The notes under the pieces were generated by a model, which worked only from the letters and a program-made list of their open reading frames with translations, had not been told where the DNA came from and searched no databases. From NCBI GenBank assembly GCA_019661895.1, contig JAIFWO010000001.1:1181-65180 (forward strand): a stretch of 64,000 nt of DNA, read 5' to 3'. Position 1 is the stretch's first letter, and every line of letters starts with the position of its first letter. The DNA comes from Candidatus Parcubacteria bacterium (lineage in GTDB: Bacteria; Patescibacteriota; Minisyncoccia; Phycocordibacterales; Zambryskibacteraceae). The translations under genes were made by a program, and so were the position numbers. Positions 39,352-61,722 of the stretch are shown piece by piece.

Positions 39352-40767
39352 CTACGGAATGGGTATTCTTGCTCCGAGGAATACCGCTGACTGCTTCGGC
39401 GGCGGGCATGCGTTGACCGCGCCGACACTCGAACATGCGTACGAACTCGACTTCGAGCCGCAATCTTTGCTGATGATGCAATACCCCGCAACAACCGCAC
39501 CGATCGCCCCACCTATCTTGATGGCCTTGCCCCATGGGAAGTTATCCTTCACATAGAGCGTATCGAAGTGCTGCCGCGTCTCGTAACGATCGTGGACCAC
39601 GACTGAATCACGCATTGTGACCGTGTCGTGGACAACCGTGGTGTCGTGCACAAGCACGGTATCCACTCGTCTGGTCGGTACGATCTTGGCAACCTGCCTT
39701 GAGGCAGTGTCCTTGGTTATTGGGATCCGTTGCTTAGAGGTTGGCCGCTTCTTGGTCGTATCCTGCTGGACCGACTGCTTGACGGCGTTGCCGACCTTCG
39801 CCACTTCGCCCGCGGCAGCAACTTCTGTCTTCGGCTTCGAAGACACGAGCTGTTGCAACTTCTTGACCGAGTCCCGCCACTTGGCATCACGCATACGTCC
39901 GAGGGAATCCTCATACCCAGACTGCGCAACAACAGCGGCTTTCTTGATCGAGTCGACATTCGCCGGCAGTCTCACCGTATCGACATTCGTGACTGTGTCA
40001 TGAATTTCGATAGGTTTAGACTTTACAGCAACGTATTGCGTGTCGACGCGCGCCGGCACTTTGCGTGCCTTAGCGAGTGAGTCAGCCCGAGCTGATGCTT
40101 TGCTTGCGACGAGTTGAACTGCATGCAAGCTTTCTTGCAACTTCTTCTGCGCTGCAGCAGCGTCTGCCAAGGCCTTTTTGAGCGGGCCTGAGTCAACAAC
40201 TGTAACGGTGAGCTGCGGAGTCGGCTTCGGTTCGAGTGCCTTACCAGGACTCATGCCCATGGTGATCAGCGCAGGAGTATCAACTAGCTTATGCTTCGCT
40301 GGATCGAAATCGCCTGCGAGATTCTTGAGCATCGGCTGGTTTGGTCGACTCGGTGTTGCGGATGCATTCGACTTCGGCTTCTCACTTGCACTTTTCGTAC
40401 TTGCGAGCGCCTTGGCCGGTGCCCTCTTCGGCGTATCGTGCATGAGTGAGAAGAGGCTGCACACCTTGCCTGTCTGGAAGAATACTCGAACAGTGTCCGG
40501 GCCGAGTTCGAAAGTAGTTCCGGATACCCAACCAGGCTTCACGTCTATTACATGTCTCAGATGACCGCGGGGGGGGAGCGGGTGAGGCTTGAGCGAGGCA
40601 TCCGGTGCGTCGTAAACGAGTACCGGATTGTTGCAAAGAGCCTTATCGGCCATGAGACTATCCAGCAGCTTCTGCCGGTCAGGTACCACCTTCTCTGGCG
40701 TCTTCACTTGAGCCCAAAGGCCCTGGAAGGCCGTAAAGAGGCCCAAAACTACCAACTTGAGTCGCAT
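39352..40767 (-). CDS. hypothetical secreted low-complexity protein with C-terminal hydrophobic/Cys-rich tail; contains a G8 tract
   Basis: A signal peptide MRLKLVVLGLFTAFQGLWAQV is present. Lys/Ala/Thr-rich repeats follow. Confidence 0.4.
   Translation of the reverse strand: MRLKLVVLGLFTAFQGLWAQVKTPEKVVPDRQKLLDSLMADKALCNNPVLVYDAPDASLKPHPLPPRGHLRHVIDVKPGWVSGTTFELGPDTVRVFFQTGKVCSLFSLMHDTPKRAPAKALASTKSASEKPKSNASATPSRPNQPMLKNLAGDFDPAKHKLVDTPALITMGMSPGKALEPKPTPQLTVTVVDSGPLKKALADAAAAQKKLQESLHAVQLVASKASARADSLAKARKVPARVDTQYVAVKSKPIEIHDTVTNVDTVRLPANVDSIKKAAVVAQSGYEDSLGRMRDAKWRDSVKKLQQLVSSKPKTEVAAAGEVAKVGNAVKQSVQQDTTKKRPTSKQRIPITKDTASRQVAKIVPTRRVDTVLVHDTTVVHDTVTMRDSVVVHDRYETRQHFDTLYVKDNFPWGKAIKIGGAIGAVVAGYCIISKDCGSKSSSYACSSVGAVNACPPPKQSAVFLGARIPIP
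40569..40576. repeat. G8/C8 homopolymer inside the 39352-40767 gene (codons HPLPPRG)
   Basis: Eight consecutive G on the plus strand. Confidence 0.8.
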
Positions 40768-40898
40768 GAGGAAGCTCCTTCGTGGAAGGTAAACGGTATA
40801 TTACGAAGATCACTCTGATAGGCACTGTATCACGCTCTTTCGCATTTGTAAAGAGCTCTGCACTATAGAGACGTACTGACGAGATAAGGCTTACTTTG

Positions 40899-40971
40899 TG
40901 CGCGATACAGGATTCGAACCTGTGACCCTCCCCACGTCAAGGGGATGCTCTACCAACTGAGCTAACCGCGC
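40899..40971 (-). tRNA. tRNA-Val (anticodon GAC)
   Basis: Reverse-complement fold. The acceptor pairs gcgcggt with atcgcgc. The loop is ttGACgt and the T-arm is acagg-ttcgaat-cctgt. Confidence 0.8.
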
Positions 40972-41011
40972 GCAAGTGTTACTTTACACGAAATATAAAT
41001 TTTCCGAAAGT

Positions 41012-41449
41012 CTACTTATTGACCACCAAAGTCTTGGCCAAGATGTCGTGGAGACCTTGCTTCTTAGCAGTGAAGGCCACCATGAGGAAGCCGATGCCAA
41101 GGATAATACCGGAGAGAATCTTGCCGAAGTAGCGGCCAGTGGCTCGAGCAAAGTCGACGCGCGCGCCACTCAGATCAGTGACCTTAATACCAAGAGCCAT
41201 CTTACCAAGCGTGGCCTGATACTTCGAACTCTCAAGAAGAGAATAGTATAGCCAACCAAGAGCGATCTTCACCACTCCGGCACTGGCTCCAAAGCTGGCA
41301 TAAAACTTAGGTCCGTACACAGCGGGTCCATGCATCGGCCAACCTCCAAAGCCGAGTACAGACATGGCCGCACCCACGATCAATCCGTCTAAGATCACTG
41401 CCAAAACTCTCTTCCAAAATCCTGCATATACAACTGTGGTGGTGTCCAT
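41012..41449 (-). CDS. RDD-family membrane protein
   Basis: RDD-like organisation (GFWKRVLAVILDGLIV ... QGLHDILAKTLVV). Confidence 0.6.
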   Translation of the reverse strand: MDTTTVVYAGFWKRVLAVILDGLIVGAAMSVLGFGGWPMHGPAVYGPKFYASFGASAGVVKIALGWLYYSLLESSKYQATLGKMALGIKVTDLSGARVDFARATGRYFGKILSGIILGIGFLMVAFTAKKQGLHDILAKTLVVNK

Positions 41450-41481
41450 GGTATTTAGATTATAAAATTATTATAGCACTG

Positions 41482-41568
41482 CGGAGGAGGAGAGATTCGA
41501 ACTCTCGAGACCCTTTCGAGCCTGCTGGTTTTCGAAACCAGTGCCTTCAACCACTCAGCCACTCCTCC
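41482..41568 (-). tRNA. tRNA-Ser (anticodon CGA)
   Basis: The acceptor pairs ggaggag with ctcctcc. The loop is ttCGAaa, there is a long variable arm, and the T-arm is gagag-ttcgaat-ctctc. Confidence 0.8.
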
Positions 41569-41627
41569 GTATAAGCGCTCAAACTATAGCATTTTTGGCA
41601 TTAAATGCTAGTATTAGGCCGGTTTAA

Positions 41628-41699
41628 GGCCCTATCGTCTATCGGTTAGGACGAAAGCTTTTCAAGCTTTAAAGCCGGGTTCGACTCCCGGTAGGGTCA
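41628..41699 (+). tRNA. tRNA-Glu (anticodon TTC)
   Basis: The acceptor pairs ggcccta with tagggtc. The loop is ttTTCaa and the T-arm is ccggg-ttcgact-cccgg. Confidence 0.8.
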
Positions 41700-41702
41700 T
41701 GC

Positions 41703-42743
41703 GTGAAAATTCTTGCCATAGAAACAAGTTGCGACGAGACGGCAATTTGTATATTGGAGGCCACTGGCGAGTTGCCGGAACCTCATTTCAAAGTGCTTGG
41801 CAATTCCCTTCTTTCCCAGATCCATATCCACCAAGACTACGGCGGCGTTTACCCGATGCTGGCCAAGAGAGAACATATAAAGAATTTGCCCGTGCTCTTA
41901 GAGAAGATTTTAGAAGAAGCTGGTGGGATGGAAGGGGTAGATGTAATCGCCGTCACCGCTGGTCCTGGGCTCGAACCTGCTCTTTGGACTGGGATCGAAT
42001 TTGCTAAAGACTTGGGAGAGAAATGGAAGAAGCCCGTGTTACCAGTCAATCACATGCATGGACATATGTTCTCCTTCCTATTCGAGCCATCCGAGCTCGT
42101 CAAATTCCCGGCTCTTGCCCTCCTTGTCTCAGGCGGACACACGGAGATCGTCCTTATGAAGAGCTTCAAGGATTACGAGATCATAGGCAAGACACGCGAC
42201 GACGCCGTGGGCGAGGCCTTCGACAAAGTCGCCAGGCTCCTCGACCTCCCTTACCCTGGCGGTCCCAAGATCTCGGCCTTGGCAGACATGCATAGGCAAA
42301 AGGGTCTCGCTTCAGAGATTATCTTCCCAAGGCCGATGATCAATACCGACGACTTCGACTTCTCATACTCCGGGCTCAAGACCTCGGTACTCTACACTAT
42401 TAAAAAGCTTGGCGTGCTTAACGAAGAGAAAAAAGAGGAAATCGCTCACGCCTTCGAGGACGCGGCCATAGAGGTGCTGATAGAAAAGACGAAAAGGGCC
42501 TTAGACAAATTCGGTGCCTCAACTCTTATCGTCGGCGGCGGAGTCTCGGCCAATCGTTACCTCCAGGAGAGGCTTAGAGGGCTCGCTCTAGAGCTCGCTC
42601 TCGACTTGCGTTTACCTCCACCTGCACTCACCACAGACAACGCGATCATGATCGGTATCGGAGCGTATGTGGCCATACTCAATCACCCAAAGATTTTGGG
42701 CACAACACGAGAGATTACCGCACAAGGCAACCTCGGTATTTAA
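41703..42743 (+). CDS. tsaD: tRNA N6-adenosine threonylcarbamoyltransferase
   Basis: The N-terminus reads (V)KILAIETSCDETAI. Metal-binding H..H motifs are present. GTG start. Confidence 0.9.
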   Translation: MKILAIETSCDETAICILEATGELPEPHFKVLGNSLLSQIHIHQDYGGVYPMLAKREHIKNLPVLLEKILEEAGGMEGVDVIAVTAGPGLEPALWTGIEFAKDLGEKWKKPVLPVNHMHGHMFSFLFEPSELVKFPALALLVSGGHTEIVLMKSFKDYEIIGKTRDDAVGEAFDKVARLLDLPYPGGPKISALADMHRQKGLASEIIFPRPMINTDDFDFSYSGLKTSVLYTIKKLGVLNEEKKEEIAHAFEDAAIEVLIEKTKRALDKFGASTLIVGGGVSANRYLQERLRGLALELALDLRLPPPALTTDNAIMIGIGAYVAILNHPKILGTTREITAQGNLGI

Positions 42744-43850
42744 TTATTTCTTCAGCTCGGTCTTCTCGATCTTCGTCTCAACTTTGGCAGGCTCTGTCTT
42801 AACTTCCGTTTTGGTCTCCTTGATGGCGTCTGGGGTAGTAGTGACAGTAGTGGTCTTAGTGATCGAGGCAGGAGGCATTGGTATAGCCGCACTTTTTACT
42901 GAGTACCAATTCTTTATAGCGCTTCTCTGCGGATAGAGAGCCATGGTTATAAGAGAGATCAGAAGAGCGAGGGCAAAAGGCAAGATAAGACACCACTCGC
43001 TTAAGGCCCAGGCAATGGCGATGGCCACCAAGAGGCCGAGAGCCACAGCAACCCACTTAGTGAAGAATCTCTTCTTAGTATTTTCTGGAAGGTCGCTGTA
43101 TAGGACATCCTCAAGGACACTTGCGAGGATATAAAGGACAACAAGGATGAGGAGGAGTTCCCAGAGGCACTGGAAGAAGTTACCAACACCCTTTGGCATT
43201 GAGAATATGGCTGCGGCGAGACCCCTGATATTTTGTCCTTTAGGAGTCGAGGTGGCCTCTCCTACTATCGGTGCCAGAGGGCCGGTACTCGTACCAGACC
43301 CAACCTCACCGCCGGAGGTACTGCCGCCATAGTAACCAGGAGGCAGCTCAGGATTGATGCCTTGGGCTCTGAGGCTCTCTATAAGAGCTTTGTAGGCCAC
43401 AATTTCTTGCTGTTGGGCATCATTTAGCGGATATATAGTCTGGCAGTAGATCTCGTTTATCTTCTTAAGGGTCAAAATATAGACATATCCGGTAGGCTGA
43501 GTAAGGCCCCAAGGAGTCAGGATATCGCTCTGGAATTTGACCTGGAAGGCGGAGACCGCATCAAACGTAGCCTGGTCAAAGACACCTGTAAGGGACACCG
43601 TGTCGTAGCCTTCGATATACTTCAAGAAGGATTGCAGGAGGTAGACTTGGTCTGGGTCATTCACAAAGTCGATGCGCATGTAGTCGTGGAGATACAGGCA
43701 GGCTGCAACTGGATTATGGCTTCCGCCAGTCGAACTGCCGCCCGAAGAGCTGCCGCTACTGCTGCCTCCCCCCCGCCCCCACCACCGCCACCTCCTCCTC
43801 CACCAGGTTGAGTAACGGTGATAACCAAGTTCGTATTTGTGGTACCGCAA
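42744..43850 (-). CDS. C-terminal module of split surface protein: Gly/Ser linker, putative peptidoglycan-binding (PG_binding_1-like) domain, multi-TM anchor, Lys/Thr-rich tail
   Basis: After GGGSSSGSSSGG comes the segment TVSLTGVFDQATFDAVSAFQVKF...GYVYILTLKKIN. Hydrophobic helices follow. The frame is +1 relative to the upstream 43661-45349 ORF. Confidence 0.5.
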   Translation of the reverse strand: MRYHKYELGYHRYSTWWRRRWRWWGRGGGSSSGSSSGGSSTGGSHNPVAACLYLHDYMRIDFVNDPDQVYLLQSFLKYIEGYDTVSLTGVFDQATFDAVSAFQVKFQSDILTPWGLTQPTGYVYILTLKKINEIYCQTIYPLNDAQQQEIVAYKALIESLRAQGINPELPPGYYGGSTSGGEVGSGTSTGPLAPIVGEATSTPKGQNIRGLAAAIFSMPKGVGNFFQCLWELLLILVVLYILASVLEDVLYSDLPENTKKRFFTKWVAVALGLLVAIAIAWALSEWCLILPFALALLISLITMALYPQRSAIKNWYSVKSAAIPMPPASITKTTTVTTTPDAIKETKTEVKTEPAKVETKIEKTELKK

Positions 43851-45349
43851 TTATTGGTAGCGGTGAGAGGGATAGTGTACGTGCCGGCAGTAGTGGGATT
43901 GCCGCTTATGGTGTTGGTACTTGAGGCGAAGCTGAATCCCTCAGGCAGGCTTGAGGTAGCTACGGTGTAGCTGTTAACCGTTGTGCTTGAGAAGGTAAAT
44001 ACATATGCGAAGTTTGCTCCACGCGTAGTGGACACTGATAGCGGACTTGTAAACTCAGGCAATGGGCACGAGCCGCCACCATTGTTCGGATTGGAGACGG
44101 TGATCACAAGGTTAGCTGGAGTATTACCACAATTGTTAGTAGCGGTAAGTGGAATGGTGAAGGTTCCCGCAGTGGTAGTAGTACCGCTTATAGTATTGGT
44201 ACTAGTGGAAAATGAGAGTCCAGCCGGAAGGCTTGAGGTAGCTACAATGAAGTTCGAGACCGTAGTGCTTGAGAAGGTGAAGGTGTAGGTAAAGGCCGAG
44301 CCGACGGTCGTCGAGGCCGCGAGCGAGCTTGTGAAGGCGGGCAATGGGCAGGAACCTCCGCCGGCGGGGATAACATTGACGGTCACAGAGTCGCTGGCTG
44401 TATCGGTACCGTTTGAACACTCAATAGTAATGACCTTAGAAGCATTATCGGCAGGATAATAATCGTGGCCAACACCTATCGGAGTACTCGATCCAGAAGT
44501 CTCAACACTCGAGTTTGCCGGAGAGGTTTGCTGGCAAGAGGTGGCATTTGAGGAGGTCCAGGTATATACGAAGGTATCGCCATGGGTAATGGTGACAGGA
44601 CCATCTGAACCATTAACCTTCACATCCACTATTGGAGTAGTAGTTGCAGGAGGAGTGGTCGTACCACCGCTTAGGTTGATAGTAACAGAGTCGGAAGCAG
44701 TATTTGATCCGTCGCTGCATTCAATAGTAATGATGATCGGGCTCGTTGCAGACGGATAGAAGGTCGTATTGCCCGATCCAATCTCTGGACTTACACCGGA
44801 AGTCTCAATACTAGAATTTTCTGGTGAAGTTTGCTGGCAAGTAGTAGCAAAGGATGAAGTCCAACTGTATGTGTAGGTGCCACCTTGGTTTAAAGTGACA
44901 GGACCATCGGAGCCATTTGCCTTGACGTCTATCAAAACAGCGTTGGTCGGAGGAGGGGTCACTGTCACCGAAGCAAGACTTATAGTTACAGAGTCACTTG
45001 CGGTGTTTACTCCATCAGAACACTCGATGGTAATAACCGTTGGATTACCCTCAGTAGGATAGTAAGGATGATCTGAAGGCACAGGTCCATCTGATCCAGA
45101 AGTCACAACACTCGAGTTTGCCGGAGAGGTTTGCTGACAAGAGGTGGCATTTGAGGAGGTCCAGGAGTATGAAAATGATTCGCCAGAGTTAAGGATGACG
45201 GATCCATCAGAGCCATTGACCTTGAGGTCGACGGATATTGTGGTATCAGCCAGAGCAAGTAACGGCAAGTTACCCAAGACAAAGGTCATAAGGATGAAAA
45301 CCTTACCAATGCGGCCGACAAACTTGTGGCGCTGTATATATGCGTTCAT
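43661..45349 (-). CDS. N-terminal part of large adhesin-like surface protein (signal peptide, 3x ~100-aa Ig-like repeats, 2x He_PIG-like repeats, poly-Gly), terminated shortly after a poly-G tract
   Basis: The signal peptide ends ...NLPLLALA. Three repeats have the form VNGSDGPV...SWTSS.AT.CQQTSP.NSS..TSG...ECSDG. Two further repeats have the form SGxxTTAGT(F/Y)TIPLTATNNCG. Confidence 0.6.
   Translation of the reverse strand: MNAYIQRHKFVGRIGKVFILMTFVLGNLPLLALADTTISVDLKVNGSDGSVILNSGESFSYSWTSSNATSCQQTSPANSSVVTSGSDGPVPSDHPYYPTEGNPTVITIECSDGVNTASDSVTISLASVTVTPPPTNAVLIDVKANGSDGPVTLNQGGTYTYSWTSSFATTCQQTSPENSSIETSGVSPEIGSGNTTFYPSATSPIIITIECSDGSNTASDSVTINLSGGTTTPPATTTPIVDVKVNGSDGPVTITHGDTFVYTWTSSNATSCQQTSPANSSVETSGSSTPIGVGHDYYPADNASKVITIECSNGTDTASDSVTVNVIPAGGGSCPLPAFTSSLAASTTVGSAFTYTFTFSSTTVSNFIVATSSLPAGLSFSTSTNTISGTTTTAGTFTIPLTATNNCGNTPANLVITVSNPNNGGGSCPLPEFTSPLSVSTTRGANFAYVFTFSSTTVNSYTVATSSLPEGFSFASSTNTISGNPTTAGTYTIPLTATNNCGTTNTNLVITVTQPGGGGGGGGGGGGEAAVAAALRAAVRLAEAIIQLQPACISTTTCASTL
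43768..43774. repeat. C7 (G7 on coding strand) homopolymer at the junction of the two adhesin ORFs, candidate slipped-strand phase-variation site
   Basis: By hand translation, adding one G to the coding strand makes GGGGGSSSGSSSGGSSTGGSHNPV... continuous with the 42744-43850 ORF. Confidence 0.6.
43870..45250. repeat. in-frame tandem DNA repeats (~300 nt x3 and ~270 nt x2) encoding the adhesin repeat domains
   Basis: Long repeated nucleotide blocks are visible, e.g. recurring ...gaggtttgctg(g/a)caag(a/t)gg.... Confidence 0.6.
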
Positions 45350-45630
45350 ATTTCAAACTCTACATTAAGTTATAAGACTGTCAACTGGTACCAAAACTTA
45401 CATGAATGCATAAAGTCCTTATTTATCAACATATTCTAAGACTTTGTCCTTTATAGCTAAAACGTCCTTGAAAGAAAGTGTGAGAAATTAAAAATATTCA
45501 ACCAATGTCTGACAAGATACGACGCTAAATATGATTTGCCAAAAATTCTTAAAAGTGGTGCTAGATTTGTCCTTTTAATATAAGCTTTATACATAAGCCT
45601 AAACTCAAGAATATGCTAAAATAGCCCTAA

Positions 45631-47727
45631 ATGGATGCGAAATTCTTAAAACCCTACTCCCCTGCCGAGACCGAAGGCCGGATCTATAAGCTCTGGGAGG
45701 AAAGCGGCCTCTTTAACCCAGACAAATGCATCGAGGATGGAGTGGCAGACGCTCACGCAGACACCTTCTCAGTTGTCCTGCCTCCTCCAAACGTCACTGG
45801 CACCCTCCACATGGGCAGCGCTCTTATGCTGGCTATCCAAGACACGCTGGTACGCTTCTCGCGTATGCGCGGCAAACGAACCCTTTGGATACCCGGCACA
45901 GACTCGGCCGCCATAGCGACCCAAGCCAAGGTGGAAAAGGACATCCAGAAGTCCGAGGGTAAGTCCCACCACAAACTTGGACGCGAAGAGCTTTTGAAAC
46001 GCATAGATACTTTCGTCGAGGAGAACAAGTCCACCATACTCTCACAGATTCGCGGCATGGGCGCCTCGGTCGATTGGAGCCGCTACGCGTACACCATGGA
46101 CGAGAGGCGCTACGATGCGGTGATGGAGGCCTTCATACGCATGTACGATGCCGGACTTATATACAGAGGCAGTAGGATCGTTAACTGGGACCCCAGAGGC
46201 CAGACGACGATCTCAGATGATGAGATCGTCTATGAGGAGGAGAAGGCGACTTTGTATTATCTCAGATACGGTCCCTTTACCATCACCACCGCTCGTCCAG
46301 AGACAAAGTTTGGCGATAAGTACGTGGTCATGCACCCTGACGATGAGAGATACAAGGATTTCAAGCACCAAGATACAATCGAGCTCGAATGGATCAATGG
46401 TCCGGTGAAGGCAACTGTCATTAAAGACGTCAACATCGACATGGCCTTTGGTACCGGGGTCATGACTATTACCCCCTGGCACGACCAGGTGGACTTCGAG
46501 ATGGCAGAAAGGCATGACCTCGACAAAGAGCAGATCATCGATCAGTTCGGCAAACTCTTGCCAGTAGCAGGAGAATTCTCCGGCATGAAGATCGCTGAAG
46601 CGCGCCCGAAGATAGTTGAGAAGATGCGAGCCAAGGGCCTGGTGGCCAAAGAGGAGCCTTATGTCCACAACATAGCCACAGCTGAACGAACTGGCGGCAG
46701 AATAGAGCCTCAGATAATGAAACAATGGTTCATAAACGTTAATAAGCCTGTCGCCACCCGCGGGAACAATACACTCAAAGAACTGATGCGCGAGCCGGTA
46801 GAGAAAGCGGCCATTGAGATTATCCCGGAATACTTAGACAAAACGTACTTCAATTGGATAGACAATTTGCGCGACTGGTGTATCTCGAGACAAATATGGT
46901 TTGGCCACAGGATACCTGTTTGGTACAAAGGTGAGGAAATATATTGCGGTAATGGAAAGCCTGTGGGAGAGGGCTGGGAGCAAGACTCGGACGTACTTGA
47001 TACGTGGTTTTCTTCGGCTTTATGGACCTTCTCCACCCTCGGCTGGCCAGAGGAGACAGCGGATCTTAAGACATATCATCCAACGGCTCTCCTTGAGACT
47101 GGTTATGACATCATCTTCTTTTGGGTGGCTCGCATGATCCTCATGAGTCAATTCCATCTTGGAGAGGTCCCCTTCCGCACTGTTTACTTGCACGGCCTGG
47201 TGCGTGACAAAGAGGGCAAGAAGATCTCAAAGTCGCTGGGCAATAACATCGACCCGCTCGATATGGGCTTGAAGTATGGCATGGACGCGGTCAGGTTCGC
47301 CCTCATAAGCGGCCAGGCTCCAGGGACCGACTCAAGGATCTCGGAGGATAAGATCAGAGGGTACAAAAACTTCGCGAACAAACTTTGGAATATCACCCGC
47401 TTTATACTTTCTCAGGAGAAAACAGGGGAACTTAAGCAAGAGTTGATCGATGAGCTTCAAGCCCTTATGCTAGACATAACGAAGGATATCGAAGAGTATC
47501 GCCTCCACCTGGCAGCCGAGAAGATCTACCACTACGTTTGGCACCGCTTGGCAGACGAGATCATCGAGGAAAGCAAGGGTAAGCCGGAGTATGGCGCGAC
47601 GCTCTACTATATCCTTGAGAATGTCTTGAAGCTCCTCCACCCCTTTATGCCATTTGTCACGGAAGAAATATGGCAAAGCATATATAATGAAGAGCGTATG
47701 CTTATGGTTAGCAAGTGGCCGATATGA
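45631..47727 (+). CDS. valS: valine--tRNA ligase (short form, C-terminal coiled-coil absent)
   Basis: HIGH-region reads PPPNVTGTLHMGSAL, KMSKS reads KISKSLGN, and a ValRS-like block reads WCISRQIWFGHRIPVWY. Confidence 0.8.
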   Translation: MDAKFLKPYSPAETEGRIYKLWEESGLFNPDKCIEDGVADAHADTFSVVLPPPNVTGTLHMGSALMLAIQDTLVRFSRMRGKRTLWIPGTDSAAIATQAKVEKDIQKSEGKSHHKLGREELLKRIDTFVEENKSTILSQIRGMGASVDWSRYAYTMDERRYDAVMEAFIRMYDAGLIYRGSRIVNWDPRGQTTISDDEIVYEEEKATLYYLRYGPFTITTARPETKFGDKYVVMHPDDERYKDFKHQDTIELEWINGPVKATVIKDVNIDMAFGTGVMTITPWHDQVDFEMAERHDLDKEQIIDQFGKLLPVAGEFSGMKIAEARPKIVEKMRAKGLVAKEEPYVHNIATAERTGGRIEPQIMKQWFINVNKPVATRGNNTLKELMREPVEKAAIEIIPEYLDKTYFNWIDNLRDWCISRQIWFGHRIPVWYKGEEIYCGNGKPVGEGWEQDSDVLDTWFSSALWTFSTLGWPEETADLKTYHPTALLETGYDIIFFWVARMILMSQFHLGEVPFRTVYLHGLVRDKEGKKISKSLGNNIDPLDMGLKYGMDAVRFALISGQAPGTDSRISEDKIRGYKNFANKLWNITRFILSQEKTGELKQELIDELQALMLDITKDIEEYRLHLAAEKIYHYVWHRLADEIIEESKGKPEYGATLYYILENVLKLLHPFMPFVTEEIWQSIYNEERMLMVSKWPI

Positions 47728-48416
47728 GCTTCGAATTCTCCCCCATTATCTACGCCCTCCTCGGAGGCATCTTGCCCGCCTTCGTCTGGCTCCTCTTCTG
47801 GCTCGAGGAAGACAGAGACAATCCGGAACCCAACACCAAGCTCCTCGCCACCTTCCTCGCTGGCATGCTCGCGGTCATTGTGGTCTTACCCTTCCAAAAG
47901 GCTGTGGATAAGATCCTGCCTGGAGCTGGGCCCGTCGCCTTCCTCCTCTGGGCGGTGCTTGAAGAAGGGTTTAAATTTGCCGCCGCCTACTACGCCGGCC
48001 TCCGTGGAGCAGACGATGATGAGCCTCTAGACCCCATGATCTATATGATCACCGCGGCGCTCGGCTTCGCCGCGCTCGAAAACGCGCTCTTCCTTCTTAA
48101 CCCGCTCCTCCAGTCCGACATCACTGGCAGCCTTATTACGGGCAATTTGCGCTTTATTGGCTCGACCCTCCTCCACACCGTCTCCTCCGGTATCATTGGC
48201 ACTGCCCTCGATCTCACCTTCTACAAATCACGCGACGAGCGGGTAGCTTTGGGAGTCTTGGCATTTTTCCTCGCCATCTTTGCGCATACGGCCTTCAATC
48301 TATTTATCTTGAATGAATCCGGCTTTGGCACCTTCCTCACCTTCGCGACCGTCTGGGCCGGCATCACCGCTCTTATCCTCATGTTTGAAAAGGTTAAAAG
48401 TATGATGGTACAATAG
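47715..48416 (+). CDS. PrsW-family-like intramembrane metalloprotease
   Basis: It is polytopic with the motif EEGFKFAAAYYAG and later FAHTAFN. Confidence 0.45.
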   Translation: MADMSFEFSPIIYALLGGILPAFVWLLFWLEEDRDNPEPNTKLLATFLAGMLAVIVVLPFQKAVDKILPGAGPVAFLLWAVLEEGFKFAAAYYAGLRGADDDEPLDPMIYMITAALGFAALENALFLLNPLLQSDITGSLITGNLRFIGSTLLHTVSSGIIGTALDLTFYKSRDERVALGVLAFFLAIFAHTAFNLFILNESGFGTFLTFATVWAGITALILMFEKVKSMMVQ

Positions 48417-50580: not shown

Positions 50581-52821
50581 CTACCTCAACCAATCCCCCG
50601 CCACCCAGCCATCTACTCCTGAGGAGAAGTCTACTTGCCACCAGGTGTATCCTGAGCCAGTCTGTGGTCCAGCCACGATCACTCCGGTTGATCCAGCTTT
50701 CTGCTGGCCCAAAGGCTTGCCTTTGGTGGTAGCCGTAGAGCGGACGTTTACCTTAGAGGTGGTAGTGACGAAGGAGCCGATCCCGAGGATAGTAGGCGGA
50801 GGAGTGCTTGGATCTACGGGAGTAAGGACTGAAACCGGAGAGGATTGAGCGGAAGAGTTGCCGGCAGCGTCCATGGCACTGACCGAGTATGAGTAACTGG
50901 TGCCAGCCACTACCGTACCGTCTGTATAGGAAGTGTTGGTAACCGTGTTGAGAAGCGCGCCGTTCTTGAAGATCTTGTAGCCGGTGACTGCGACGTTGTC
51001 TGTGGAAGCGGACCAAGAGAGATTCACGTGGGTAGTGTCTGAAGCTGTGCCTTGGAGGTTCTGAGGGACAGAAGGAGCCGTGGTATCTCCAGAAGTTGGA
51101 GGCGGAGGAGGAGGGAGGGAGATGGAACCGCTCCAGTCACCGGAGACTGCGCCTCGGGTAGCGTAGAGGACGGCGTCTATGTCTGCTCCTGGGTCAGAGC
51201 CGTCTGAAGCTTTGCCTTTGTATGGAGAGTTGGAAGAGAGGTGGAAGTCGGTGGAGGAGACGAAGCCGATGGCAGCTTTATTCTCAGGGTACATATTGTT
51301 TGGAGGGAGTGTCCAGGCCGCGCAGTATTTGTTCGGATCGCAGACAATGGTATTGTGGTCGAACAGCCAGCTCGGTGATGCCGCATTAAGCGTGGCGGTA
51401 CCATTCGCGCCACTACCAAAGATTGTGTACAGAGCGTCGCCGCCGACATTGTCTTGAATAACCAAGTTTGGCGCTGACGGGTCTATGATGCTCCATGTAT
51501 CGGTACTAAAGCCTGTGTTGTGAATGAAAGTTAAATTGGCAAAGCCATTGACAGTAAGGTACCGCCAAGGTGGGTTGTCTGCCCTCTGACCGACATCGAG
51601 GTTGTTCGCGATGTACAGATTCTTCATAGGAATAGTCGAGGTGTCGTATCTGGCGCTGAGCGAGTATAGTGAGTTTACATTCTTCAGCATGTTATTGCGA
51701 ATGGTGATGTCCGATGTCGTACACCAGCTGCAGCCAGAGTTTGCCGACCAGAGCGCAAAGCCCCAGCCCGCCTGATCTTGCTGCCAACTGTTCTCAAGTA
51801 CGTTTCCTTCGATAAGCACACGTACGCCTGATTTGAATTCAACAAGATTTTTTATCGATCGGTGGATGCCATCATAAGAAGGGTCGCTGGCGCGCCAGGA
51901 GAGCGGTTTGAAGATGTGGTTACCGCGAATTTCAACATCAGATGGAATGAGACCGGTGATATGTGGAGTAAAGCCGCCAATCGCAATGTTCTCAGCGGAG
52001 GCTTCGAGATAATTGTTATTAATCTTGTATGGACCAGGGCCATTACCCATAGTAATGGCTTGGACATCGAAGCCATCGTTCTCACATTTACTAATATAAC
52101 TTTCAACGACGGCACTCCAGGCGCTATGCAGACCAATGCACTTGCGGTTTTGCAACGTATCAAGTCCGTGTACATATGAACGGTCAAGTATCAAATGGTG
52201 AGGAACGCTTGCAAGCGTATTTTGGATGGTTCCTTCAGCAGTTCCGAAGGAAAGGATCTGGTTTACATCAGTAAGGGTTGGGGCTACCGTGACTTCAAGT
52301 CCGATGAGTCGGTAATAGTTCGCACCAGCCTCGGTATCCAAGGTCCAACTGTAATTCTGCCCTGTTTGTATTTTCGCGAGCTGAGATGCGTCGGTCGGCT
52401 TTACTCTCCTACCCTCCGGAGGCAGGGCACCATTGGACTTAATGACGATCCATTGATTGTTAGGGTTAGACTTGTTCCTTAAGACGAAGTTGCCGGTGTA
52501 AGTGGCTCCCGCTTGGAGGACAATGGTGTCTCCAGGCTGAGCGGTATCAAGAGCGGCTTGGAGGTTTCCGCCTGAGGTGACATTGATAGTCTGGCCACTC
52601 TGTGTTGGCATAGTAGTGTCCACGTAGGCTCGAGGGAGCTCGGCGGGGCCGGCAAAGCCGGAGTAGCTTTGGTTCACTGAGGCGGTATTAGGTCTTGATG
52701 CCGGAGCAGATCTGAGTACATATAAAGCGCCGACCAGAACAATAGCGACAAGGAACGAGCCGAATATTGATACTTTTTTCATAAGATTTGTTAAGCTTCT
52801 CATCCTATGATTATACCTCAA
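50581..52821 (-). CDS. secreted right-handed beta-helix (pectate-lyase-like) protein with C-terminal FN3 and SH3b domains, paralogue A
   Basis: An N-anchor is followed by QTINVTSGGNLQAALDTAQPGDTIVLQAGATYTGNF and parallel beta-helix repeats. FN3 reads APSVPQNLQGTASDTTHVNLSWSAS...AGNSS. The SH3b-like domain reads VNVRSTATTKGKPLG...GYTWWQVDF. Confidence 0.55.
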   Translation of the reverse strand: MRYNHRMRSLTNLMKKVSIFGSFLVAIVLVGALYVLRSAPASRPNTASVNQSYSGFAGPAELPRAYVDTTMPTQSGQTINVTSGGNLQAALDTAQPGDTIVLQAGATYTGNFVLRNKSNPNNQWIVIKSNGALPPEGRRVKPTDASQLAKIQTGQNYSWTLDTEAGANYYRLIGLEVTVAPTLTDVNQILSFGTAEGTIQNTLASVPHHLILDRSYVHGLDTLQNRKCIGLHSAWSAVVESYISKCENDGFDVQAITMGNGPGPYKINNNYLEASAENIAIGGFTPHITGLIPSDVEIRGNHIFKPLSWRASDPSYDGIHRSIKNLVEFKSGVRVLIEGNVLENSWQQDQAGWGFALWSANSGCSWCTTSDITIRNNMLKNVNSLYSLSARYDTSTIPMKNLYIANNLDVGQRADNPPWRYLTVNGFANLTFIHNTGFSTDTWSIIDPSAPNLVIQDNVGGDALYTIFGSGANGTATLNAASPSWLFDHNTIVCDPNKYCAAWTLPPNNMYPENKAAIGFVSSTDFHLSSNSPYKGKASDGSDPGADIDAVLYATRGAVSGDWSGSISLPPPPPPTSGDTTAPSVPQNLQGTASDTTHVNLSWSASTDNVAVTGYKIFKNGALLNTVTNTSYTDGTVVAGTSYSYSVSAMDAAGNSSAQSSPVSVLTPVDPSTPPPTILGIGSFVTTTSKVNVRSTATTKGKPLGQQKAGSTGVIVAGPQTGSGYTWWQVDFSSGVDGWVAGDWLR

Positions 52822-59232: not shown

Positions 59233-61722
59233 CTATCTCAAACTATCCACTACCCAGCCATCTGCTCCTGAGGAGAAGTCTACCTGCCACCAGGTATAAC
59301 CGTCGGCTTGCGTAGGGCCAGCCGTAATGGTGCCGATAGCCCCCGCATTCTGGCTACCGAGTTTGAGTCCTGAGGTGGAAGGCGTGGAGCGAACGGTCAG
59401 CCTCTCAGTAGTGGAGACACTAGAACCGATGGCTAGAGGAATCGGAGCTTGAGTCTTTACCATAGAGTCTCCTATGGCCCAGCCGTCTGTACCGGTAGTG
59501 AAGTCCACATTGTACCAGGTGTAGCCTGAGCCTTGAGTGGGGCCAGCCGTGATCTGGCCTACCGCACTCGCACTTTGGGAACCGGCAGGTTTGCCTCCGG
59601 TAGCGGGGGTGGAGCGGATGTTGGTCTTTTGAGTAAGTTGGATCCAGTCTCCTACCTGGAGAGTAGTGGTTGGAGGAGGGGTGGTGGGGGTACCAGTAGT
59701 GTTCGAGACCAAGACTGAGACGCTCTGACTCACAGTGCTATTACCTGCCGCATCTCGAGCGACAGCAGTAATAATGTGCGAACCGTCTGAACCTGCTGTT
59801 GTATTCCAAGAAGCAGTGTAAGGGGGAATAGTTTTCTCGGTATCTACATTGACCCCATCAACCTTGAACTGCACACCCACGACGCCTACGTTGTCTGAGG
59901 CGGTAGCGATTAGGGTGGCTGTACCAACGAGGGTAGTGCCCGCTACTGGAGTAGTAACAGAGACTGAAGGAGCCGTGGTATCTCCAGTAGTAGGAGGTGG
60001 AGGAGGGAGGGAGATGGAACCGCTCCAGTCACCGGAGACTGCTCCTCGGGTAGCGTAGAGGACTGCGTCTATGTCTGCTCCTGGGTCAGAGCCGTCTGAA
60101 GCTTTGCCCTTGTATGGAGAGTTGGAGGAGAGGTGGAAGTCTGTGGAGGAGACGAAGCCGATGTCTGCCAGCGTCACCGGATAAGAGTTGTTAGCAGGAT
60201 AAGGGAAGAGCCATGTTGAGTCCTGATCATTCTTTGAGAGAAGGAAGACGTTATGATCAAAGGTCCACGACTTATTAGTGGCGGAATCAAGTCCTTTTAT
60301 TCCACTTCCAACTGCATTGGTAATGCCATAATAACCGTCGCCAATTACGTTGTCTTGGAAGATAAGGTTAGCTGAGGGAATTGCGGAATCGGGAATCATA
60401 AATGACTCCCCGTGTATAAGCATTGTGTTATGCACGGCAGTAATATTGGAAACTCCGGCAATACTAAACTCTCTCCAGCCAGGATTGTCCGCATTGCGTC
60501 CGTAGTCAATATTGTTGGCAATATAGAGTCGACTCATCGGCACAGCAACTCCGTATACACCACTAAGACCAAATGGGGAGGCCACGTTCTTCAAGATATT
60601 ATTTCTTATGACCACGTCCGAGGTCTCACACCAAGTGCAGCCGCCGTTCTGGTTAACAGACCAAAGGGTAAAGCCCCAACCAACCTGAGCGTCATTCCAG
60701 GCATTTTCAAGCACGTTACCTTCCATAAGAAGGCGCTTGCCAATCTTAAACTCGATAACATTCTTCTCCAGACGAGGGACACCGTCATAGATACTGGTAC
60801 CAGAGCGCCAGGTGAGCGGGCGGAAGAAGTGATTGCCTCGTATCTCCATGTCATTAGGGAGCATGCCTTGGATAGCGGGGTCAAAGCCGCCGAAAGCAAT
60901 ATCTTCAGAAGAGGCCTCGAGGAAATTGTTCACGATCTTATACGGGCCAGGGCCATTGCCACCGGCGATGGCCTGAGTATCATAACCCGCTCCCTCACAT
61001 TGTGAGACATAGGAGTCGATTACCGCGCTCCAGGCGCTGTTGAGTCCAATACAGCGGCGATTCTGAAGCGTGTCATATCCGTGCACATATGAGCGGTCGA
61101 CAACGATGTGATGTGGAATGCTTGCTAAAGTGTTTTGCACTGCGCCATCAGACGTACCCATGGCAAGAATCGTATTTACATCGATAAGTTGGGGTGCGGT
61201 GGTGATCTCAAGACCAATGAGTCGATAATAGTTTGCACCTGGCTGCGTAGCCACTGCGTTGGCGTAATTTACCCCTGTTTGCAATTTGGCAAGCTGTCCA
61301 GCATTAGCTGGAGTAACTCTCCTCCCCTCTGGAGGAAGAGTGCCATTGGACTTAATAACAATCCATTGATTGTTAGGGTTAGACTTGTTCCTTAAGATGA
61401 AGTTACCAGTGTAGGTGGCTCCGGCTTGGAGGACAATGGTGTCTCCAGGCTGAGCGGTATCAAGAGCGGCTTGGAGGTTTCCGCCTGAGGCTACGTTAAT
61501 AGTCTGGCCACTCTGAGAGGGCATAGTAGTGTCCACATAGGCTCGAGGGAGCTCGGCTGGACCGGCAAAGCCGGAGTAGCTGAGGTTGACGGAGGCGGTC
61601 TTGGATTGAGGAGAATTGCGGGTGAGCGGCTTAAAGACCGAGATAATAGCGACTAAGAGCACGAGTAAGGCTAAGGAAGCGATGAGTGGTGATTTTTTCA
61701 TGAAAGCGATAATTTGATTCAT
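59233..61722 (-). CDS. secreted right-handed beta-helix protein with Ig-like domain and two C-terminal SH3b domains, paralogue B
   Basis: The N-region and an internal ~65-aa block (SSTDFHLSSNSPYKGKASDGSDPGADIDAVLYATRGAVSGDWSGSISLPPPPP) match paralogue A. Two SH3b-like modules end ...GYTWYNVDF and ...GYTWWQVDF. Confidence 0.55.
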   Translation of the reverse strand: MNQIIAFMKKSPLIASLALLVLLVAIISVFKPLTRNSPQSKTASVNLSYSGFAGPAELPRAYVDTTMPSQSGQTINVASGGNLQAALDTAQPGDTIVLQAGATYTGNFILRNKSNPNNQWIVIKSNGTLPPEGRRVTPANAGQLAKLQTGVNYANAVATQPGANYYRLIGLEITTAPQLIDVNTILAMGTSDGAVQNTLASIPHHIVVDRSYVHGYDTLQNRRCIGLNSAWSAVIDSYVSQCEGAGYDTQAIAGGNGPGPYKIVNNFLEASSEDIAFGGFDPAIQGMLPNDMEIRGNHFFRPLTWRSGTSIYDGVPRLEKNVIEFKIGKRLLMEGNVLENAWNDAQVGWGFTLWSVNQNGGCTWCETSDVVIRNNILKNVASPFGLSGVYGVAVPMSRLYIANNIDYGRNADNPGWREFSIAGVSNITAVHNTMLIHGESFMIPDSAIPSANLIFQDNVIGDGYYGITNAVGSGIKGLDSATNKSWTFDHNVFLLSKNDQDSTWLFPYPANNSYPVTLADIGFVSSTDFHLSSNSPYKGKASDGSDPGADIDAVLYATRGAVSGDWSGSISLPPPPPTTGDTTAPSVSVTTPVAGTTLVGTATLIATASDNVGVVGVQFKVDGVNVDTEKTIPPYTASWNTTAGSDGSHIITAVARDAAGNSTVSQSVSVLVSNTTGTPTTPPPTTTLQVGDWIQLTQKTNIRSTPATGGKPAGSQSASAVGQITAGPTQGSGYTWYNVDFTTGTDGWAIGDSMVKTQAPIPLAIGSSVSTTERLTVRSTPSTSGLKLGSQNAGAIGTITAGPTQADGYTWWQVDFSSGADGWVVDSLR

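What the first reader, a model, noticed from the sequence alone, without database searches (positions are those of the whole stretch)
42744..45349. Large adhesin-like surface protein split at a C7/G7 homopolymer: +1 G restores a ~930-aa protein with a peptidoglycan-binding/transmembrane C-terminus (candidate phase variation)
ORF 43661-45349 has a signal peptide, three Ig-like repeats of about 100 aa, two He_PIG-like repeats and a G12 run. It stops 40 codons after a G7 tract (plus-strand C7, 43768-43774).

In the +1 frame the same DNA reads GGGSSSGSSSGGSSTGG-SHNPV..., contiguous with ORF 42744-43850. That downstream ORF carries a PG_binding_1-like motif, a multi-helix membrane anchor and a Lys/Thr-rich tail.

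A one-base change in the homopolymer therefore toggles between a truncated secreted form and a full anchored form. Slipped-strand switching of a surface adhesin is classic phase variation. Alternatively, the split is a homopolymer sequencing error.
Basis: seen in the sequence. Interest (0 to 1): 0.7.

Follow-up and report, generated by a model that had tools for sequence, protein, structure and literature searches.

The report
Conserved envelope gene broken by one-base slip
A large membrane-anchored, cell-wall-binding surface protein gene of an uncultivated Parcubacteria-type bacterium is split in two by a single missing G in a run of Gs; relatives all carry it as one intact gene without such a run, so this looks like an ordinary slip (in the cell or in the sequencer), not a proven on/off switch.

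Summary
On the minus strand, ORF 43661-45349 and ORF 42744-43850 overlap in different frames. One extra G in the G7 tract (plus-strand C7, 43768-43774) joins them into an 868-aa protein, not about 930 aa.

The joined protein has a signal peptide, three Ig-like repeats, two He_PIG domains, a poly-Gly/Ser linker, a PG_binding_1 domain, three transmembrane helices and a Lys/Thr-rich tail. It is the ortholog of a conserved, single-copy gene that lies between valS and tsaD in Parcubacteria/Patescibacteria.

In about 40 independent relatives the gene is one ORF. None of 64 homologous linkers has a G run longer than 5. ORF2 shows no decay: 79% identity to the nearest ortholog and every family-invariant residue kept. 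No frameshift-stimulating RNA structure follows the tract.

In near-clonal metagenome contigs of a relative, this linker is an indel hot spot. Eight indels are in frame and one, an 8-nt duplication, shifts the frame.

Best reading: a recent, unprogrammed G8-to-G7 slip, either a consensus miscall or a sporadic natural allele. Evolved phase variation is possible (about 0.2) but unsupported. Only read-level tract counts can decide. Interest is low to moderate.

The parts
42744..45349 (-). The whole interrupted gene. It is a single ancestral ORF of 868 codons once one G is restored. It lies between tsaD (41703-42743, +, convergent and directly abutting) and valS (45631-47727, +, divergent).
43661..45349 (-). 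ORF1 as it stands: 562 aa, made of 527 authentic residues, a 35-aa out-of-frame tail (EAAVAAALRAAV...CASTL) and a stop.
45245..45349 (-). N-terminal signal or hydrophobic anchor region, residues 1-35 (MNAYIQRHKFVGRIGKVFILMTFVLGNLPLLALAD).
   Evidence: Hydropathy peak 1.95 at residues 17-35; modelled as helix 3-26; conserved in homologs
44363..45238 (-). Three tandem beta-sandwich (Ig-like) repeats of about 100 aa, each with the motif D[LV]K[VA]NGSDG...W.S..AT.C...C.
   Evidence: DNA repeat families D1 and D3, spacing 300-303 nt, 66-82% identity. AlphaFold2 pLDDT above 90, all-beta. Foldseek matches tandem Ig arrays.
43805..44362 (-). Two He_PIG (PF05345) Ig-like domains, each starting GGGSCPLP.
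   Evidence: Pfam E = 5e-15, two stretches; 282-nt direct repeat at 72% identity
43701..43804 (-). Poly-Gly/Ser linker between the ectodomain and the PG-binding module. Restored reading: G14-SSSGSSSGGSSTGGSHNPVAA.
   Evidence: The linker is conserved in the family at protein level and is an indel hot spot in near-clonal relatives.
43768..43774 (-). The G7 homopolymer (plus-strand C7) where the frame breaks. The in-frame state is G8 (GGG GGG GGA). Run lengths allowed in a poly-Gly tract are 2, 5 and 8.
42744..43850 (-). ORF2 as listed (368 aa from a TTG). Its first 26 or so codons (MRYHKYELGYHRYSTWWRRRWRWWGR) are the out-of-frame reading of He_PIG and poly-Gly DNA. There is no signal peptide and no credible start of its own.
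43347..43700 (-). PG_binding_1-like helical domain with the following conserved helix (CLYLHDYMRIDF...PTGYVYILTLKKINEIYC...).
   Evidence: Pfam PF01471 at 26.7 bits, cut-off 23. AlphaFold2 pLDDT 87-97. Foldseek hits to the PG-binding domains of CtpB, SleB (TM-score 0.79 normalised to the target) and SltB3. 79% identical to ortholog P0002.
42933..43175 (-). Three-helix transmembrane anchor: CLWELLLILVVLYILASVL, then the KKRFFTK loop, then WVAVALGLLVAIAIAWAL, then CLILPFALALLISLITMAL.
   Evidence: Hydropathy peaks of 2.6; long helices in the model; conserved across the family
42747..42932 (-). Lys/Thr/Glu-rich C-terminal tail, disordered and inferred to be cytoplasmic.
   Evidence: Sequence; pLDDT below 50. 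Topology is inferred from the positive-inside rule.
45357..45384 (-). Promoter-like site TTGACA-16 nt-TAGAGT, ending 8 nt before the ORF1 ATG, which suggests a nearly leaderless transcript. No comparable site or ribosome-binding site lies ahead of ORF2.
   Evidence: consensus match only

Best explanation
This is one gene, not two. It is the ortholog of a conserved, single-copy envelope protein of Parcubacteria/Patescibacteria that sits between valS and tsaD.

The protein is exported through an N-terminal signal. It displays a string of Ig-like domains (three family-specific repeats and two He_PIG). A flexible poly-Gly/Ser linker tethers these to a PG_binding_1 domain that would hold the cell wall. 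Three C-terminal transmembrane helices and a charged tail, inferred to be cytoplasmic, anchor it in the membrane.

In this window the linker has acquired two adjacent GGG codons followed by GGA, which makes a G8 run. One G is missing (G8 to G7). Translation therefore runs out of frame for 35 codons and stops. What is left is an unanchored ectodomain and an untranslatable C-terminal module.

The lesion is a strand-slippage product at the only long homopolymer of the gene. It is very recent or not physically present, and it is not a programmed or evolved switch. I put a homopolymer or consensus miscall at about 0.4 and a sporadic natural slippage allele at about 0.3. Such alleles do occur in this linker in related populations.

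Shown: single-gene ancestry, the exact site and sign of the shift, the domain architecture, the lack of decay, and the absence of the tract in relatives. Inferred: the topology, the wall-tethering role, and whether the slip happened in the cell or in the sequencer.
For: - +1 G gives one 868-aa ORF.
- Database homologs are single proteins of 620-1190 aa covering up to 99% of the joined sequence.
- The nearest ortholog, P0002, sits in the same PrsW-valS-[gene]-tsaD context as one 910-aa ORF. TsaD lies next to the gene in 101 of 160 related loci and ValRS in 70.
- All of the roughly 33 full-length members in species-representative genomes read in one frame, apart from three that are interrupted by runs of N. 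No truncated forms ending after the poly-Gly occur among the 120 database hits.
- 64 homologous linkers have longest G runs of 2, 3 or 5 nt and never 6 or more. GGG makes up 7% of linker Gly codons and is never adjacent to another GGG.
- ORF2 keeps every family-invariant residue and is 79% identical to P0002 in the PG-binding module, so there has been no time for decay.
- In near-identical contig sets, indels inside this gene are 8 in frame against 1 frameshift, and 4 of the 9 lie in this linker. The linker slips and selection keeps the frame. My arithmetic: the binomial probability of at least 8 of 9 in frame at 1/3 each is about 1e-3.
- The frame break coincides with one of only two homopolymers of 7 nt or more in 64 kb.
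- About 40 other genes checked by Pfam are intact, so this is not a generally indel-ridden assembly.
Against: - Nothing here separates a technical miscall from a real allele, because no reads are available.
- The assembly looks accurate elsewhere. No frameshift occurs at 18 A6/T6 runs or at the in-frame C8 tract at 40569-40576. That lowers the prior for a sequencing error and leaves room for a real, possibly selected, OFF allele.
- A G7/G8 tract is within the length range that is hypermutable in bacteria known for phase variation (my knowledge of Campylobacter, Neisseria and Bordetella; reviews listed).
- The break falls exactly at an inter-domain linker, so the truncated product could be a functional shed ectodomain.
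- A related population carries a frameshifted linker allele alongside intact ones.
- The two tracts of 7 nt or more in the window both lie in genes for signal-peptide proteins, one in frame and one out.
Confidence: 0.7

Rival explanations
1. Evolved homopolymer (simple-sequence-repeat) phase variation. The G tract is a lineage-specific contingency locus. Slipped-strand mispairing toggles G8 (ON: wall- and membrane-anchored protein) and G7/G9 (OFF: ectodomain released and the anchor module not made). This would diversify the cell surface of an episymbiont population.
For: - The tract length is in the hypermutable range, and both reading frames are perfectly preserved.
- The break lies at a domain boundary.
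- The only other tract of 7 nt or more in the window (C8, 40569-40576) sits 64 codons into another secreted-protein gene.
- The linker is an indel hot spot in natural near-clonal populations and includes one frameshift allele, L096.
- The rest of the assembly shows no homopolymer frameshifts.
Against: - The tract is absent from all 64 homologous linkers, including the nearest ortholog.
- The gene is a conserved, syntenic, single-copy core gene.
- Natural indels strongly favour keeping the frame, 8 against 1.
- G/C homopolymers are depleted in the window: 2 runs of 7 nt or more against about 8 expected.
- No heterogeneity data exist.
- Full-text searches found no report of repeat-mediated phase variation in Patescibacteria or the candidate phyla radiation.
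Confidence: 0.2
2. Programmed recoding. The genome really carries G7, and full-length protein is made by a -1 ribosomal slip of tRNA-Gly on the G run, or by RNA polymerase adding a G. This would yield a fixed ratio of shed and anchored forms.
For: - A -1 slip at the P site on G-GGG-GGG would land in the ORF2 frame (reading).
- The window encodes a tRNA-Gly(CCC).
- ORF2 is intact.
Against: - The 108 nt after the tract fold no better than shuffled sequence (z = +0.97; 169 of 200 shuffles fold at least as well).
- C-GGG-GGG is not a canonical X-XXY-YYZ slippery heptamer.
- No homolog needs a frameshift.
- Efficient transcriptional slippage is known mainly for longer A/T runs (my knowledge).
Confidence: 0.04
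3. A fixed pseudogene in decay, or two genuinely separate genes: a secreted Ig-repeat protein and a separate PG-binding membrane protein.
For: - The sequence as given has two ORFs.
- Another gene in the window, ClpB/ClpC, is also disrupted, so real gene damage may occur in this genome.
Against: - ORF2 has no start codon with a signal peptide, no promoter and no ribosome-binding site of its own. Its listed N-terminus is the out-of-frame reading of ORF1 DNA.
- There are no further lesions in about 1 kb. The PG module is 79% identical to the ortholog and all invariant residues are kept.
- No relative has a two-gene arrangement.
Confidence: 0.04

Closest known systems
Homopolymeric-tract (simple sequence repeat) phase-variable surface genes of Campylobacter jejuni, Neisseria, Helicobacter and Bordetella pertussis
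   Same: A poly-G/C tract of 7-8 nt lies inside the coding region of a surface protein gene. A one-base length change truncates the product, and the downstream frame is intact.
   Different: - Known loci show tract-length heterogeneity within cultures, and their tracts recur across strains. Their genomes carry many such tracts, usually near the 5' end of accessory genes.
- Here heterogeneity cannot be tested.
- The tract is unique among 64 homologs.
- It lies 60% of the way into a conserved core gene.
- Homopolymers are depleted in the window.
Uncharacterised Parcubacteria/Patescibacteria envelope protein family, annotated by sources as 'secreted agglutinin', 'T1SS secreted agglutinin RTX' or 'peptidoglycan-binding protein' (P0002, P0005, P0016, P0017)
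   Same: Same architecture from end to end: signal peptide, KANGSDGP-type Ig-like repeats, He_PIG, poly-Gly linker, PG_binding_1, three transmembrane helices and a charged tail. Same genomic position between valS and tsaD.
   Different: The window's copy is the only one with a G run of 6 nt or more in the linker. Together with metagenome contig L096, it is one of only two copies that are frameshifted.
PG_binding_1 (PF01471) wall-targeting domains of SleB, CtpB and SltB3
   Same: The helical domain after the linker scores above the Pfam cut-off. Its model superposes on the SleB N-terminal domain with a target-normalised TM-score of 0.79 and rmsd 2.7 A.
   Different: Those proteins are wall hydrolases or proteases. 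Here the domain joins a non-enzymatic Ig-like stalk to a three-helix membrane anchor. Overall Foldseek E-values are weak (0.2-0.5).
Homopolymer indel errors in genome and metagenome assemblies
   Same: A single-base length difference at one of the two longest homopolymers in the window, in an otherwise perfectly conserved ORF.
   Different: No other homopolymer-linked frameshift occurs in 64 kb, and the C8 tract 3 kb away is in frame. Platform and read data are unknown.

Membership tests
Parcubacteria Ig-repeat / PG_binding_1 / three-transmembrane-helix envelope protein family | N-terminal signal or hydrophobic segment followed by tandem Ig-like repeats of about 100 aa (KANGSDGP...W.S..AT.C motif) | tested here: met
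   Three repeats; beta-sandwich models with pLDDT above 90; aligned with 11-32 homologs
Parcubacteria Ig-repeat / PG_binding_1 / three-transmembrane-helix envelope protein family | Poly-Gly linker followed by a PG_binding_1 domain, a three-helix membrane anchor and a charged tail | tested here: met
   Pfam 26.7 bits against a cut-off of 23; model and fold hits; hydropathy; 33 invariant columns shared
Parcubacteria Ig-repeat / PG_binding_1 / three-transmembrane-helix envelope protein family | Conserved position between valS/prsW and tsaD | tested here: met
   Window. Ortholog locus L001. TsaD is adjacent in 101 of 160 loci.
Parcubacteria Ig-repeat / PG_binding_1 / three-transmembrane-helix envelope protein family | Encoded as one continuous ORF | tested here: not met
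   The window copy needs +1 G at 43768-43774. About 40 relatives are continuous.
Simple-sequence-repeat phase-variable (contingency) locus | Hypermutable repeat tract inside the ORF whose length sets the reading frame | tested here: met
   G7 (OFF) and G8 (ON) at 43768-43774. This is at the lower end of the tract lengths known to switch (my knowledge).
Simple-sequence-repeat phase-variable (contingency) locus | Tract-length heterogeneity within a population and reversible ON/OFF switching | not testable with these tools
   No reads. No contig above 60% identity was found in the genome or metagenome collections. The window's own proteins are not on record.
Simple-sequence-repeat phase-variable (contingency) locus | Tract maintained in relatives, or repeat tracts over-represented in the genome | tested here: not met
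   None of 64 homologous linkers has a G run of 6 or more. Runs of 7 nt or more in the window: 2 observed against about 12 expected.
Programmed -1 ribosomal frameshift | Canonical slippery heptamer plus a downstream stimulatory structure, conserved among homologs | tested here: not met
   C-GGG-GGG is non-canonical. Downstream fold z = +0.97. Homologs need no shift.
Decaying pseudogene | Further disabling lesions or relaxed constraint downstream of the first lesion | tested here: not met
   No stop in 1.0 kb of ORF2; all invariant residues kept; 79% identity to the ortholog
Homopolymer sequencing or consensus artefact | Lesion is a one-base change at a long homopolymer in an otherwise intact gene | tested here: met
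Homopolymer sequencing or consensus artefact | Other homopolymer-linked frameshifts in the same assembly, and reads that disagree with the consensus | tested here: inconclusive
   None found among about 40 genes checked, but only one other tract of 7 nt or more exists to test. Reads are unavailable.

The most novel reading that the evidence does not exclude
The poly-Gly/Ser linker of this core Parcubacteria envelope protein may be a natural slippage hot spot that populations use to switch the protein between a wall- and membrane-anchored form and a shed, ectodomain-only form. This window would be a G8/G7 homopolymer version and contig L096 an 8-nt tandem-duplication version. That would be the first case of repeat-mediated phase variation in the candidate phyla radiation, acting on a conserved gene and not an accessory one.
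Probability: 0.15. Interest if true: 0.6.

Novelty: new member of a known kind. Interest (0 to 1): 0.3.

Why it matters
**If the frameshift is real and heterogeneous.** It would show that ultra-small, uncultivated Parcubacteria vary a major surface-exposed, wall-tethered protein by strand slippage. That bears on how these likely episymbionts attach to or evade hosts and phages. It would also be testable directly in existing metagenome reads.

**If it is a consensus error.** The practical lesson is annotation. The two ORFs should be merged into one 868-aa gene.

**Either way.** The analysis defines a widespread, syntenic and so far uncharacterised envelope protein family: Ig-like stalk, poly-Gly linker, PG_binding_1 and a three-helix anchor, located between valS and tsaD. 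Its linker is an indel hot spot under selection to keep the frame.

Tried and rejected
- **Finding the source.** Exact-protein look-ups of ORF1, ValRS and PrsW found nothing on record. The sequencing platform could not be inferred.
- **Finding close relatives or strain variants.** The genome scan and the metagenome scan returned nothing above about 60% identity. The window's own tract could not be compared across strains.
- **ValRS as a second frameshift.** I suspected a ValRS frameshift (698 aa followed by an overlapping 233-aa ORF). Rejected: the second ORF is a separate PrsW protease, and the same arrangement occurs in relatives.
- **Split copies in L022, L023 and L029.** These looked split, but the frame changes lie across runs of N, that is gaps or masking inside the repeats. 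Rejected as evidence.
- **Avoidance of adjacent GGG codons.** I tested for selection against them in family linkers: 0 observed against 2.4-3.5 expected, P about 0.06. This is suggestive only.
- **Downstream RNA structure for ribosomal frameshifting.** None found.
- **A crude codon-usage coding score** for finding split genes was uninformative. I replaced it with Pfam scans of about 50 ORFs.
- **Literature.** Searches for phase variation in Patescibacteria or the candidate phyla radiation, and for this protein family, returned nothing relevant.
- **Structure model.** The second He_PIG domain in the ORF1 model is low-confidence because the global alignment misplaced it. I did not use it.
Full report
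**1. The observation**

On the minus strand, ORF 43661-45349 (562 aa) and ORF 42744-43850 (368 aa) overlap by 190 nt in different frames. The coding strand reads ...GGT GGG GGC GGG GGG G|AG GCA GCA.... The G7 is plus-strand C7 at 43768-43774 and is preceded by GGGGGC.

Inserting one G gives a single 868-codon ORF. ORF1 ends 35 codons after the last full GGG codon. The '12 G' is a run of 12 glycine residues encoded by mixed GGN codons.

Within a poly-Gly tract only G runs of 2, 5, 8 and so on are in frame. G7 therefore looks like G8 minus one.

Pfam finds He_PIG twice (E = 5e-15) in ORF1 and PG_binding_1 (26.7 bits, cut-off 23) in ORF2. DNA-level repeats of about 300 nt (three copies) and 282 nt (two copies) confirm the repeat structure.

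The window holds only two homopolymers of 7 nt or more, where about 12 are expected from composition. The frame break sits on one of them.

**2. What the gene is**

The joined protein finds single-ORF homologs of 620-1190 aa in Parcubacteria/Patescibacteria that cover up to 99% of its length. P0002 is 910 aa, 50% identical, and carries He_PIG plus PG_binding_1. Some sources call these proteins 'secreted agglutinin' or 'peptidoglycan-binding protein'.

The architecture is shared from end to end:
- a signal or hydrophobic N-terminus;
- one to five Ig-like repeats with a KANGSDGP...W.S..AT.C motif;
- zero to two He_PIG domains;
- a poly-Gly linker;
- a PG_binding_1 domain;
- a second disordered linker;
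- three transmembrane helices;
- a charged tail.

AlphaFold2 models support this. The repeats are confident beta-sandwiches resembling tandem Ig arrays. The module after the linker is a confident helical domain. Its best structural matches are the PG-binding domains of CtpB, SleB (target-normalised TM-score 0.79) and SltB3. Long membrane helices follow it.

I infer the topology from the positive-inside rule (KKRFFTK loop): ectodomain and PG-binding domain outside, tail inside.

The gene is a core, syntenic one. P0002 lies in the same PrsW-valS-[gene]-tsaD context. Across 160 related loci, TsaD is adjacent in 101, ValRS in 70, PrsW in 38 and Hsp20 in 34.

**3. Is the split found elsewhere?**

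- Of about 33 full-length members in species-representative genomes, all read in one frame. The three exceptions change frame across runs of N.
- A stricter count gives 41 unique loci with start, hydrophobic N-terminus and C-module in one ORF. One entry in this count may be a false positive of the start-codon test, so I state the number of intact relatives as about 40.
- None of the 120 database hits ends shortly after its poly-Gly.
- The poly-Gly linker is conserved as protein, but its DNA avoids long runs. In 64 homologous linkers the longest G run is 2, 3 or 5 nt and never 6 or more.
- GGG is 7% of linker Gly codons and is never adjacent to another GGG: 0 observed against 2.4-3.5 expected, P about 0.06.
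- Within the window's own gene, GGG accounts for 2 of 78 Gly codons outside the tract.

The G8/G7 tract is therefore a peculiarity of this lineage and not a family feature.

**4. A second, independent frameshift and a hot spot**

One metagenome contig, L096 (Ga0208245_1005295), is also split in the same linker.

It is 99.5% identical, with 0 mismatches and 3 gaps over 4761 nt, to L090 and L097. It is 97.9% identical to L093. All three of those are intact.

The difference is an 8-nt tandem duplication. L093 reads AGCGGTAG and L096 reads AGCGGTAGAGCGGTAG. In-frame differences of 3 nt (GGG) and 6 nt (GGCGGC) lie nearby.

Across all near-identical locus sets I counted nine indel events inside the gene. 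Eight are in frame and one is a frameshift. Four of the nine lie in this linker. At 1/3 per event, the probability of at least 8 of 9 being in frame is about 1e-3 (my arithmetic).

So the linker does slip in nature, and selection keeps the frame. Frameshift alleles exist but are rare.

**5. State of ORF2 and of the rest of the window**

ORF2 has no stop for 1.0 kb and keeps every invariant family residue. Its PG-binding module is 79% identical to P0002, against about 47% for the ectodomain. The lesion is thus very recent, reversible or not real.

ORF2 has no signal peptide. Its listed N-terminus is the out-of-frame reading of ORF1 DNA. No promoter-like site or ribosome-binding site precedes a plausible start.

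Pfam scans of about 50 other ORFs show topA, parB, miaA, gyrA, infB, rbfA, rpsA, ftsA, ftsZ, lepA, murJ, valS, tsaD, trxB and others intact. There are 18 A6/T6 runs and none is associated with a frameshift in the ORFs checked. The only other long tract, C8 at 40569-40576, is in frame. The assembly is therefore not generally indel-ridden.

One other gene is damaged. ClpB/ClpC lacks about 22 codons of its second Clp_N repeat and changes frame at about 10535-10560, with no homopolymer there.

**6. Mechanism and rivals**

*Best explanation (0.7).* This is a single conserved gene carrying an unprogrammed one-base contraction at the one long homopolymer of its linker. I split this into about 0.4 for a consensus or sequencing miscall and about 0.3 for a sporadic natural slippage allele.

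*Evolved phase variation (0.2).*
- For: the tract length, the intact frames, the break at a domain boundary, the clean remainder of the assembly, the L096 precedent, and the second tract in a neighbouring secreted-protein gene.
- Against: the tract is absent in all relatives, the gene has core status, natural indels are biased to stay in frame, homopolymers are depleted in the window, and there are no heterogeneity data.
- Full-text searches found no report of repeat-mediated phase variation in Patescibacteria or the candidate phyla radiation.

*Programmed recoding (0.04).* This is disfavoured. The slippery site is non-canonical, the downstream fold is no better than shuffles (z = +0.97), and no homolog needs a shift.

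*Decaying pseudogene or two true genes (0.04).* This is disfavoured by the undecayed ORF2 and its lack of any independent start.

**7. Comparison and novelty**

The locus works like a homopolymer frameshift in a surface protein gene, which is a known kind. Membership in the class of phase-variable loci fails the one comparative criterion I could test, tract maintenance or enrichment. The decisive criterion, heterogeneity, cannot be tested here.

The protein belongs to an uncharacterised but widespread Parcubacteria envelope family on every criterion except continuity of the ORF.

**Verdict**

Interest is about 0.3. Read-level tract counts would settle the question quickly.

Noticed in passing
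window 8202-10815 (-), junction about 10535-10560: ClpB/ClpC-type AAA+ chaperone is disrupted. A 103-codon ORF carries Clp_N repeat 1. The body ORF (762 aa from a TTG) carries only the second half of repeat 2 upstream of any start. About 22 codons are missing and the frame changes, with no homopolymer at the junction. It is a real deletion or a misassembly. It is the only other broken gene I found in the window.
   Followed up: partly
window 40569-40576 (G8 on +, C8 in the gene), ORF 39352-40767 (-): The longest homopolymer in the window lies in frame (CTC CCC CCC CGC, LPPR). It sits 64 codons into a 471-aa ORF that has a signal peptide and a C-terminal hydrophobic segment, no Pfam hit, and no counterpart in the 160 related loci. 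It could be a second slippage-prone surface gene.
   Followed up: partly
L096 3195-3215; L090 3710-3725; L093 2905-2950: Near-clonal metagenome contigs of a related Parcubacteria differ only by indels. L096 has an 8-nt tandem duplication in the Gly/Ser linker that frameshifts the gene. In-frame differences of 3 and 6 nt lie in the same linker. A 12-nt tandem duplication (ATCATGTCTTTT) lies at L096 875-886, outside the gene. The linker is a natural indel hot spot.
   Followed up: yes
window 17750-19547 (-): Four small tandem ORFs (109-132 aa) each match the type IV secretion system pilin family (PF18895 T4SS_pilin / TrbC). This is a paralogous pilin cluster.
   Followed up: no
window 50581-52821, 59233-61722 and 62145-63962 (all -): Three more large predicted surface proteins: fn3 plus SH3_3; Big_7 plus SH3_3; and Laminin_G_3. 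They are interleaved with lepA, murJ and a TPR protein, so the region is rich in envelope proteins.
   Followed up: no
window 45357-45384 (-): A promoter-like TTGACA-16 nt-TAGAGT ends 8 nt before the ATG of the surface protein gene. No Shine-Dalgarno sequence lies between them, which suggests a leaderless or nearly leaderless mRNA.
   Followed up: no
window 45631-47727 (+) and 47715-48416 (+): ValRS is short (698 aa; its Anticodon_1 match runs to residue 697 and nothing follows it). A PrsW-family intramembrane protease gene overlaps its end by 13 nt. The same valS-prsW-hsp20 order is conserved in relatives.
   Followed up: partly
L022 4446-4545; L023 4534-4623; L029 (200 N): In several public MAGs the Ig-repeat part of this gene contains runs of N (scaffold gaps or masking). 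These mimic frameshifts in tblastn. The tandem repeats evidently break short-read assemblies.
   Followed up: yes
window 14640-15262 (+) and 40898-41699: A cluster of five tRNA genes (Cys, Leu, Gly-CCC, Lys, Leu). Three further tRNAs (Val, Ser, Glu) lie just beyond tsaD, on the far side from the surface gene.
   Followed up: no
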